Positions 2,804 to 2,946 of a stretch of 64,000 bases of DNA are shown one piece after another (position 1 is the stretch's first letter; each line of letters opens with the position of its first letter). The DNA lies in assembly GCA_964016885.1 (NCBI GenBank), contig OZ024751.1, forward strand, positions 20,274,001 through 20,338,000. The letters run 5' to 3'. The position numbers and the translations under genes were made by a program. The notes below the pieces were generated by a model. That model was not told where the DNA came from, did not search any database, and worked only from the letters and a program-made list of their open reading frames with translations. Source of the DNA: Eledone cirrhosa (taxonomy: Eukaryota).

Positions 2804-2946
2804 CGAAGGAAATGTGGTAAGGAACCGGGTGGACCATAACGCACCAAAGTACTCAATACTTAGGGTAGTAGAGTGGGTCATAGTTTAGTCCAGAATTAGC
2901 CGTCGAAACGGCTTGAGCTCAGCCGTCGGGGTCCTACTCGTTCCTA
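2804..2946. mobile_element. Family A element, non-overlapping inversion form
   Basis: Tail segment in one orientation joined to the AGTCCAGAA...GTTCCTAT segment in the other. Confidence 0.85.

What the first reader, a model, noticed from the sequence alone, without database searches (positions are those of the whole stretch)
2804..2946. Twin-priming-like copies with a fixed internal priming site
Seen: here, and at 45085-45236, 18866-18990, 32312-32436 and 62969-63170 (family D), the element is not duplicated. The 3' tail lies in one orientation and the upstream part in the other. In the close family A copies the break is at or near the CCTAT site where short arms of palindromic copies end. 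Established: L1 twin priming gives non-overlapping inversions. Inference: both 3' ends of a cut (TA)n prime on one RNA, one at the tail and one at an internal UAU; full palindromes arise when the first cDNA reads through. A programmed second priming site would be unusual.
Basis: partly seen in the sequence, partly recalled or inferred. Interest (0 to 1): 0.7.

Follow-up and report, generated by a model that had tools for sequence, protein, structure and literature searches.

The report
Penelope ends primed at two sites
These are short back-to-back copies of the end of a Penelope-type jumping gene that lands in TA repeats and was likely copied from two fixed start points, a pattern already known for this class; the non-duplicated copies are a minority whose breaks are scattered, with only a modest excess at the inner start point.

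Summary
All five named copies are real non-duplicated inversions, but only 2804-2946 and 45085-45236 break at or near CCTAT. Family A is the pLTR end of a coding Hydra-type Penelope-like element. The tail runs on into an RT/GIY-YIG-type ORF, so both outer ends (tail end, CCTAT) are internal RNA sites, as published in vitro for a Poseidon element (PMC11167929). In 1.32 Mb, the script paired 79 insertions with one end at each site against 1 with both at the same site, and 43 of 43 typable palindromes had same-subfamily arms. This favours coordinated double priming, probably of one RNA. The inner junction is not fixed: 11 of 79 copies are non-duplicated, 5 break at positions 54-61 and 6 deeper in the tail. 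Genome-wide counts fall steadily along the element. CCTAT holds a 3-4-fold local excess, but so does a second microhomology site. Most arms meet at the tip of a predicted hammerhead stem II. Later deletion from palindromes is not excluded. The scan reported the same two-ended priming earlier on other DNA of this genome.

The parts
2804..2883 (-). Family A tail, positions 58-137; outer end at site 1 (left), inner end at the CTAT of site 2
   Evidence: 95% to the reference arm
2884..2886 (+). TTT continuing the plus-strand arm into the predicted stem II tip; 1-nt microhomology at the junction
   Evidence: sequence; same letters upstream of AGTCC in L051-L058
2887..2947 (+). Family A arm, positions 1-61: 3' half of a hammerhead-like motif (GAAAC 2905-2909, GTC 2925-2927), ending at site 2 CCTAT (2943-2947)
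2684..2794 (.). (TA)n target, left
2945..2981 (.). TA-rich target, right
45084..45238 (.). Near non-duplicated family A copy: tail side starts at 54, arm 1-61, 7 nt between
18876..18977 (.). Older-subfamily non-duplicated copy: tail side starts at about 64, no TA runs at the ends
32312..32436 (.). Diverged relative, non-duplicated; tail aligns from about 71
62969..63170 (.). Family D non-duplicated copy: last 38 nt of the 87-nt tail inverted, joined to a full arm with a CTGATGA...GAAA core
2325..2520 (.). Full family A palindrome (site 1 + site 2)
15925..16345 (.). Two full family A palindromes
38631..39223 (.). Two family A palindromes (the first with an internal deletion in the long arm), with an unrelated fold-back between them
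45326..45436 (.). Rare tail-less palindrome (site 2 + site 2)
48749..48866 (.). Short palindrome, both arms ending at about 42, just past the predicted ribozyme cut
54914..55108 (.). Full family A palindrome
56149..56566 (.). Two full family A palindromes (the first is the numbering reference)
58529..58704 (.). Family A palindrome with a rearranged short arm
63215..63387 (.). Family A palindrome with short arm truncated at 33
53300..53707 (.). Full family D palindrome with tail
56674..57102 (.). Full family D palindrome with tail

Best explanation
The copy at 2804-2946 is a short head-to-head insertion of the pLTR end of a coding Penelope-like element with Hydra-clade motifs, and it was likely made when both ends of a cut (TA)n primed reverse transcription at two fixed internal RNA sites about 78 nt apart, probably on one RNA. 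SHOWN: the family is continuous with an RT/endonuclease ORF; paired insertions end once at each site; arms match in subfamily; inner junctions are scattered with microhomology hot spots. INFERRED: usually both cDNAs run to the tip of hammerhead stem II, where a cDNA end becomes complementary to the other cDNA (or to itself) and the two are joined, giving the ~190-nt asymmetric palindrome. In about one copy in seven the tail-primed cDNA is shorter (stopped early or trimmed) and is joined by 1-4 nt of microhomology wherever it ended, giving the non-duplicated form. A modest excess at CCTAT may reflect a stall at the second priming complex, but microhomology can explain part or all of it.
For: Autonomous partner: in L091 the tail end runs into a leader and an ORF start. 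19 of the 24 best matches to that leader passed a tail-motif test immediately upstream. Of these 24, RW[KR] is present in 22, SDKT in 20, CxCX5C in 19, YRDDG-type in 14, VIYQC..YIG in 12 (loci end mid-ORF). 7 of 10 extended loci show a second arm in the same orientation about 2.5-3.7 kb downstream of the first. Atlas nearest clusters carry HTH_animal/RVT_1/GIY-YIG at 0.91-0.94. Paired ends: 64 site1+site2, 1 site2+site2, 0 site1+site1, 3 other in 1,064,000 contiguous bases; 15, 0, 0 and 2 other in 251,567 flank bases. At most half would be mixed if each end chose independently (p about 6e-17 for 64 of 66). Arms agree in subfamily in 43 of 43 typable palindromes, against 18% expected at random, whereas 2 of 4 tail-less palindromes typed by eye have discordant arms (p 0.006). 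Inner end of tail-side arm: 1-12 in 46 of 64, which is the stem II tip in the long copies. Tile counts for one subfamily, after normalising: about 550 (25-41), 467 (47-64), 326 (65-82), 263 (85-102), against about 8,850 full palindromes. A mirror class with full tail-side arm and almost no short arm also exists (138 matches; 27 of 30 loci checked). In vitro precedent: PMC11167929.
Against: One RNA is not proven: an asymmetric dimer on two RNAs would also give one end at each site, and subfamilies active at different times would also give matching arms. A real local excess exists at 57-61 (57 of 100 listed junctions, hand tally; about 53 per position against 9-16 nearby), and the CTA junction at 58 outnumbers the CTAA junction at 78 (21 of 100 against 4 of 100, p 0.0004). 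This leans towards a true stall more than my statement allows. Some junctions keep the palindrome centre and then jump into the tail (for example via ATTA at 9-12 and 60-63), which deletion or fold-back explains as easily. Pfam found nothing in the three ORF pieces tested. The hammerhead fold has 94% paired cells but no two-sided changes. Target-site duplications cannot be read inside (TA)n.
Confidence: 0.66

Rival explanations
1. Strict twin priming with a roadblock: the tail-primed cDNA stops at the second priming complex at CCTAT, and non-duplicated copies are the direct product.
For: 57 of 100 listed junctions in the 47-64 tile lie at 57-61, 29 of them at 58 (hand tally). Tail-only copies joined to TA at this site exist by the hundreds (328 on the non-overlapping strand).
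Against: Tile totals decline steadily with no peak. Positions 80-82 have a similar density (44 of 100, about 48 per position). 6 of 11 break deeper in the tail. 86% of pairs pass the site. Family D junctions are scattered: four of five non-duplicated copies read by eye break well inside the tail. The tail-only class has TAT microhomology to the target.
Confidence: 0.14
2. Non-duplicated copies arose after insertion, by microhomology-mediated deletion of one arm from full palindromes.
For: Junctions that keep the palindrome centre and resume in the tail (several; L008 and L013). Microhomology at many junctions. Non-duplicated tails are not significantly older or younger than palindromic ones (nearest-neighbour differences, n = 8 against 55, p 0.19), so the age test is weak.
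Against: Non-duplicated copies occur at 99% identity to the reference (45086). Loss of exactly one arm is not the usual product of hairpin slippage (recalled knowledge). Many junctions reach deep into the non-palindromic tail.
Confidence: 0.1
3. Self-priming fold-back: one cDNA passes the stem II tip, folds on itself and copies its own arm. Non-duplicated copies are aborted fold-backs joined to the other end.
For: Arms meet at a natural hairpin tip. Centre-retaining junctions. Arm concordance follows automatically. Self-priming was proposed for PLE palindromes (PMC3846280, passages).
Against: It does not explain why the short arm ends at CCTAT in nearly every copy unless a target end was already engaged there. 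Both s<t and s>t centres are common, so both strands would have to fold back in different copies. Products are otherwise indistinguishable from two-cDNA joining, so it may act alongside the best model.
Confidence: 0.1

Closest known systems
Hydra clade of C-terminal EN+ Penelope-like elements (Craig et al. 2021, PMC8557442; passages read)
   Same: Single short ORF with RWK-type motif, DKT, CxCX5C linker, C-terminal endonuclease with CxH, insertion into (TA)n, inverted 5'-truncated copy, tail at one end
   Different: Tail here is about 78 nt (87 nt in family D) against the 30-40 bp described for PLE tails. The hammerhead core is the U3-A8 type with a long stem II. Copies are mostly ~190-nt ends. 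No phylogeny was built, so clade assignment rests on motifs.
Poseidon PAc element of Anolis (Frangieh et al. 2024, PMC11167929; parts 1-2 of 4 read)
   Same: RT starts at two fixed internal RNA sites that bound the tail; both target strands are cut and extended; AT-rich target; predicted dimer; hammerhead upstream
   Different: In the parts read, the paper reports no difference in start site between strands and does not test whether the two sites pair within one insertion. Here they pair almost strictly. Its start sites lie inside the ORF and are described as not homologous to the target; here they lie in the leader and carry TA-like letters.
L1 twin priming and dual priming (as described in Meyer et al. 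2010, PMC2837659; passages; the original 2001 paper is recalled, not read)
   Same: Second target end primes internally; two inverted pieces joined head to head, often with microhomology
   Different: In L1 the first primer uses the poly(A) tail, the internal site is not described as fixed in the passages read, and the pieces do not overlap. Here both sites are fixed and internal, and overlap (palindrome) is the rule.
PLE hammerheads with U3-A8 core (Cervera and de la Pena 2014, PMC4209133; passages)
   Same: U3-A8 in place of C3-G8, long helix II with an unpaired base at its 5' end, opposite-strand pairs of motifs noted
   Different: Stem II here has a second helix whose tip coincides with most palindrome centres; cleavage not tested.

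Membership tests
EN+ Penelope-like element | Single ORF with RT followed by GIY-YIG-type endonuclease | tested here: met
   Motif order RWR, DKT, motif A, YRDDG, CxCX5C, VIYQC..YIG, CKH along about 2 kb in extended loci; Atlas clusters. Pfam scan negative; all copies seen are broken.
EN+ Penelope-like element | pLTR: same terminal sequence before and after the ORF | tested here: met
   7 of 10 extended loci have a downstream arm in the same orientation
EN+ Penelope-like element | Inverted 5'-truncated copy and one-sided tail | tested here: met
EN+ Penelope-like element | Hammerhead motif in the pLTR | tested here: inconclusive
   Core boxes of U3-A8 type and three stems are present in 18 long arms (found with a pattern written for them); 94% of cells pair but with no two-sided change; no Rfam hit in the window; cleavage untested
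EN+ Penelope-like element | Target-site duplication | not testable with these tools
   Targets are (TA)n runs
Hydra clade | RWK-type, DKT and CxCX5C motifs | tested here: met
   22, 20 and 19 of 24 loci; the first motif reads RWR here
Hydra clade | Insertion into (TA)n | tested here: met
Hydra clade | Placement in an RT phylogeny with reference Hydra elements | not tested
   No reference sequences were at hand
L1-type twin priming product | Two inverted pieces that do not overlap | tested here: not met
   Met by the focal copy, but by only 11 of 79 paired insertions (tail-side start at 46 or later)
L1-type twin priming product | First priming at the RNA's 3' poly(A) end | tested here: not met
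   The tail continues into the ORF leader
L1-type twin priming product | Both cDNAs from one RNA molecule | tested here: inconclusive
   Strict site pairing and 43 of 43 concordance favour it but do not prove it
MITE (DNA transposon) | Inverted repeats at both termini | tested here: not met
   One end is a non-repeated tail; inner ends vary; the sequence is continuous with an RT ORF

The most novel reading that the evidence does not exclude
A Penelope-type dimer engages one RNA at two programmed sites, one per target strand, so programmed twin priming is the normal insertion route of these elements. The upstream complex partly blocks the downstream RT (excess at CCTAT), and the tip of hammerhead stem II captures both cDNA ends. 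The ribozyme fold would then set insertion length independently of cleavage.
Probability: 0.4. Interest if true: 0.65.

Novelty: new member of a known kind. Interest (0 to 1): 0.4.

Why it matters
How Penelope-like elements form inverted repeats with a one-sided tail is stated as open in PMC8557442 and only partly answered in vitro in PMC11167929. A young family with thousands of ~190-nt copies gives counts that constrain the mechanism: one end at each site, matched arms, and junctions at a hairpin tip. It suggests a simple two-RNA marking experiment. The claim as first written, a fixed inversion junction, does not hold, so this finding adds a constraint rather than a new system.

Tried and rejected
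Rfam at gathering threshold: 0 hits in the window. Pfam on three ORF pieces: 0 families. I first read 16 copies with CTGA-N-GA upstream of the arm as the complete ribozyme core and the TTTAG as an intron end. The long copies have no such exon in the 24 loci searched and carry a U3-A8 core with TTTAG paired in stem II, so I dropped both readings; most of the 16 lie at palindrome centres. The first structure string was out of register and was redone. Orthologous test: laying public contigs on 18735-19045 gave no piece spanning the locus, and none spanned 2796-2990, so later deletion was not tested by alleles. No RNA holder was listed. Age test inconclusive. MITE reading rejected (see membership). 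Rows dropped: hits under 84% identity or 30 bits were left out. In one search, 30 unpaired arms were not counted; by eye three are mixed pairs missed by the script, one is a second site2+site2 copy, and two are chance hits. Tile counts cover one subfamily and exact anchors only. Anchor corrections rest on 20-24 copies. The 25-41 tile was corrected with 26 of 40 loci (25 by script plus L199 by eye). The 7-24 tile (1,344) mixes both arms and was not corrected. Position tallies are by hand on the 100 listed rows of 370 and 312. Not in print, as far as searched: 'twin priming' + 'Penelope' gave 3 papers, none on this by title or abstract start; 'octopus' + 'Penelope' + 'hammerhead' gave 5 (the organism word was my guess from recall and was not tested); the 2026 retrozyme preprint has no hits for twin, tail or priming (passages). 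Subscription papers and all supplements were not seen; supplements of PMC8557442 and PMC11167929 may hold this family or the pairing result.

Full report
1. Observation. The focal copy is as described: an inverted tail (2804-2883) joined to one arm (2887-2947) inside TA runs. I number the family from the sense arm of window copy 56152-56341: CCTAT is 57-61 and the tail ends at 138. The tail-side piece starts at 58 here and at 54 in 45086-45238. It starts at about 64 in 18866-18990, aligns from about 71 in 32312-32436, and starts 49 nt past the inner site in the family D copy. The form is genome-wide (370 exact matches, control 0), and scattered joints of this kind occur in public contigs.

2. 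What the family is. One copy (L091) had captured sequence in which the tail continues into a leader and an ORF start. Searching with that piece gave 40 scored matches of 1,050 candidates. Of the 24 I examined, 19 passed the tail-motif test directly upstream, and the ORF carries RW[KR] (22), SDKT (20), CxCX5C (19), RT motifs (13-14) and VIYQC..YIG (12). Seven of 10 extended loci have a second arm downstream in the same orientation, ending near site 2 or at site 1. These are the motifs given for the Hydra clade, which also targets (TA)n (PMC8557442, passages). Atlas neighbours agree; Pfam is blank. So family A copies are pLTR ends of a coding Penelope-like element, and both outer ends are internal RNA positions.

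3. Ribozyme. Long copies show, upstream of position 1, a U3-A8-type core, a 4-bp stem I, a long two-part stem II and a 5-bp stem III closing at GUC. 94% of cells pair, slid controls pair 30-51%, and there are no two-sided changes, so the fold is predicted, not shown. The variant core is described in PMC4209133 (passages). Position 1 lies at the tip of stem II, where most palindrome centres fall.

4. Outer ends. In 1,064,000 contiguous bases the script found 64 insertions with one end at each site, 1 with both at site 2, none with both at site 1, and 3 with another end. Flanks of 82 loci added 15, 0, 0 and 2. Independent choice would give at most half mixed (p about 6e-17). Arms share a subfamily in 43 of 43 typable palindromes, against 18% by chance. 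Two of 4 tail-less palindromes typed by eye are discordant, as expected if those needed two RNAs. It does not prove one RNA.

5. Inner junction. The tail-side arm starts at 1-12 in 46 of 64, at 13-45 in 9, at 46-63 in 4 and deeper in 5; the flank set has one at 54 and one at 117 among 15. Genome-wide tiles for one subfamily gave 1,344 (7-24, both arms), 507 (25-41; 26 of 40 checked are tail-side), 370 (47-64), 312 (65-82) and 252 (85-102). Normalised, the last four are about 550, 467, 326 and 263, against about 8,850 full palindromes. There is no dominant site. Hand tallies show a local excess at 57-61 (57 of 100; about 53 per position against 9-16 nearby) and a similar one at 80-82 (44 of 100; about 48 against 13). 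Both coincide with short matches to the palindrome centre (CTA, ATTA, AGT). The CTA junction at 58 is more frequent than the CTAA junction at 78 (21 against 4 of 100), so a partial stall at site 2 remains possible. The mirror class, with the short arm nearly absent, also exists (138), so either cDNA can be short.

6. Mechanism. Inferred: the endonuclease cuts (TA)n on both strands; each 3' end primes at its own internal site; both cDNAs usually reach the stem II tip and are joined head to head; early stops or trimming give partial and non-duplicated forms through microhomology. Rivals are a strict roadblock, later deletion, and fold-back self-priming (PMC3846280, part 1 of 5 and passages). The age comparison was uninformative and the allele tests failed for lack of spanning contigs.

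7. Known or new. Inverted pLTRs with a one-sided tail are standard for these elements (PMC3846280, PMC8557442). Two internal start sites bounding the tail, with both strands extended, are shown in vitro (PMC11167929). L1 twin priming differs in using the poly(A) tail and giving non-overlapping pieces (PMC2837659, passages). The strict pairing of sites within insertions was not found in my searches, but this scan had noted it on other DNA of the same genome.

8. Verdict. Real feature, new member of a known kind. Programmed second priming site: supported and already known for the class. Fixed inversion junction: not supported. Interest 0.40.

Noticed in passing
L091:1020-1500 (G000:C22): An insertion that captured about 470 nt of the element's own leader and ORF start between its two arms, which suggests a template switch.
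   Followed up: yes
window 15207-15504, 18418-18553, 38797-38986, 59358-59465, 62969-63170: Several other fold-back families in (TA)n with CTGA-N-GA...GAAA hammerhead-like cores; probably ends of other Penelope-like elements. Only family D was examined.
   Followed up: partly
window 48749-48866 and G000:C11 about 20443800: Palindromes whose two arms both end at about position 42, just past the predicted ribozyme cut; possibly copied from cleaved RNA.
   Followed up: no
genome-wide: Hundreds of tail-only copies joined directly to (TA)n at the TAT of site 2 (328 on one strand).
   Followed up: partly
G000:C11 about 20094090-20094190 and L196: Tail-less palindromes whose two arms belong to different subfamilies, which suggests two RNAs.
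   Followed up: partly
window 23209-23607: Open frame with a KINRYQDL...VVPIVIGALG stretch that resembles the C-terminus of restriction-like endonuclease LINEs (recalled, not tested).
   Followed up: no
window 16877-17100, 27688-27900, 32578-32734, 57530-57683: tRNA-like headed SINE-type repeats between TA runs (recognised by eye).
   Followed up: no
window 35020-36357: 104-bp tandem array, 12.8 copies, 96% matches.
   Followed up: no
family D, window 56674-57102: The first 25 nt of the family D tail hold a CTC..CTAC/GTAG..AG hairpin like the one after family A site 1 (by eye).
   Followed up: no
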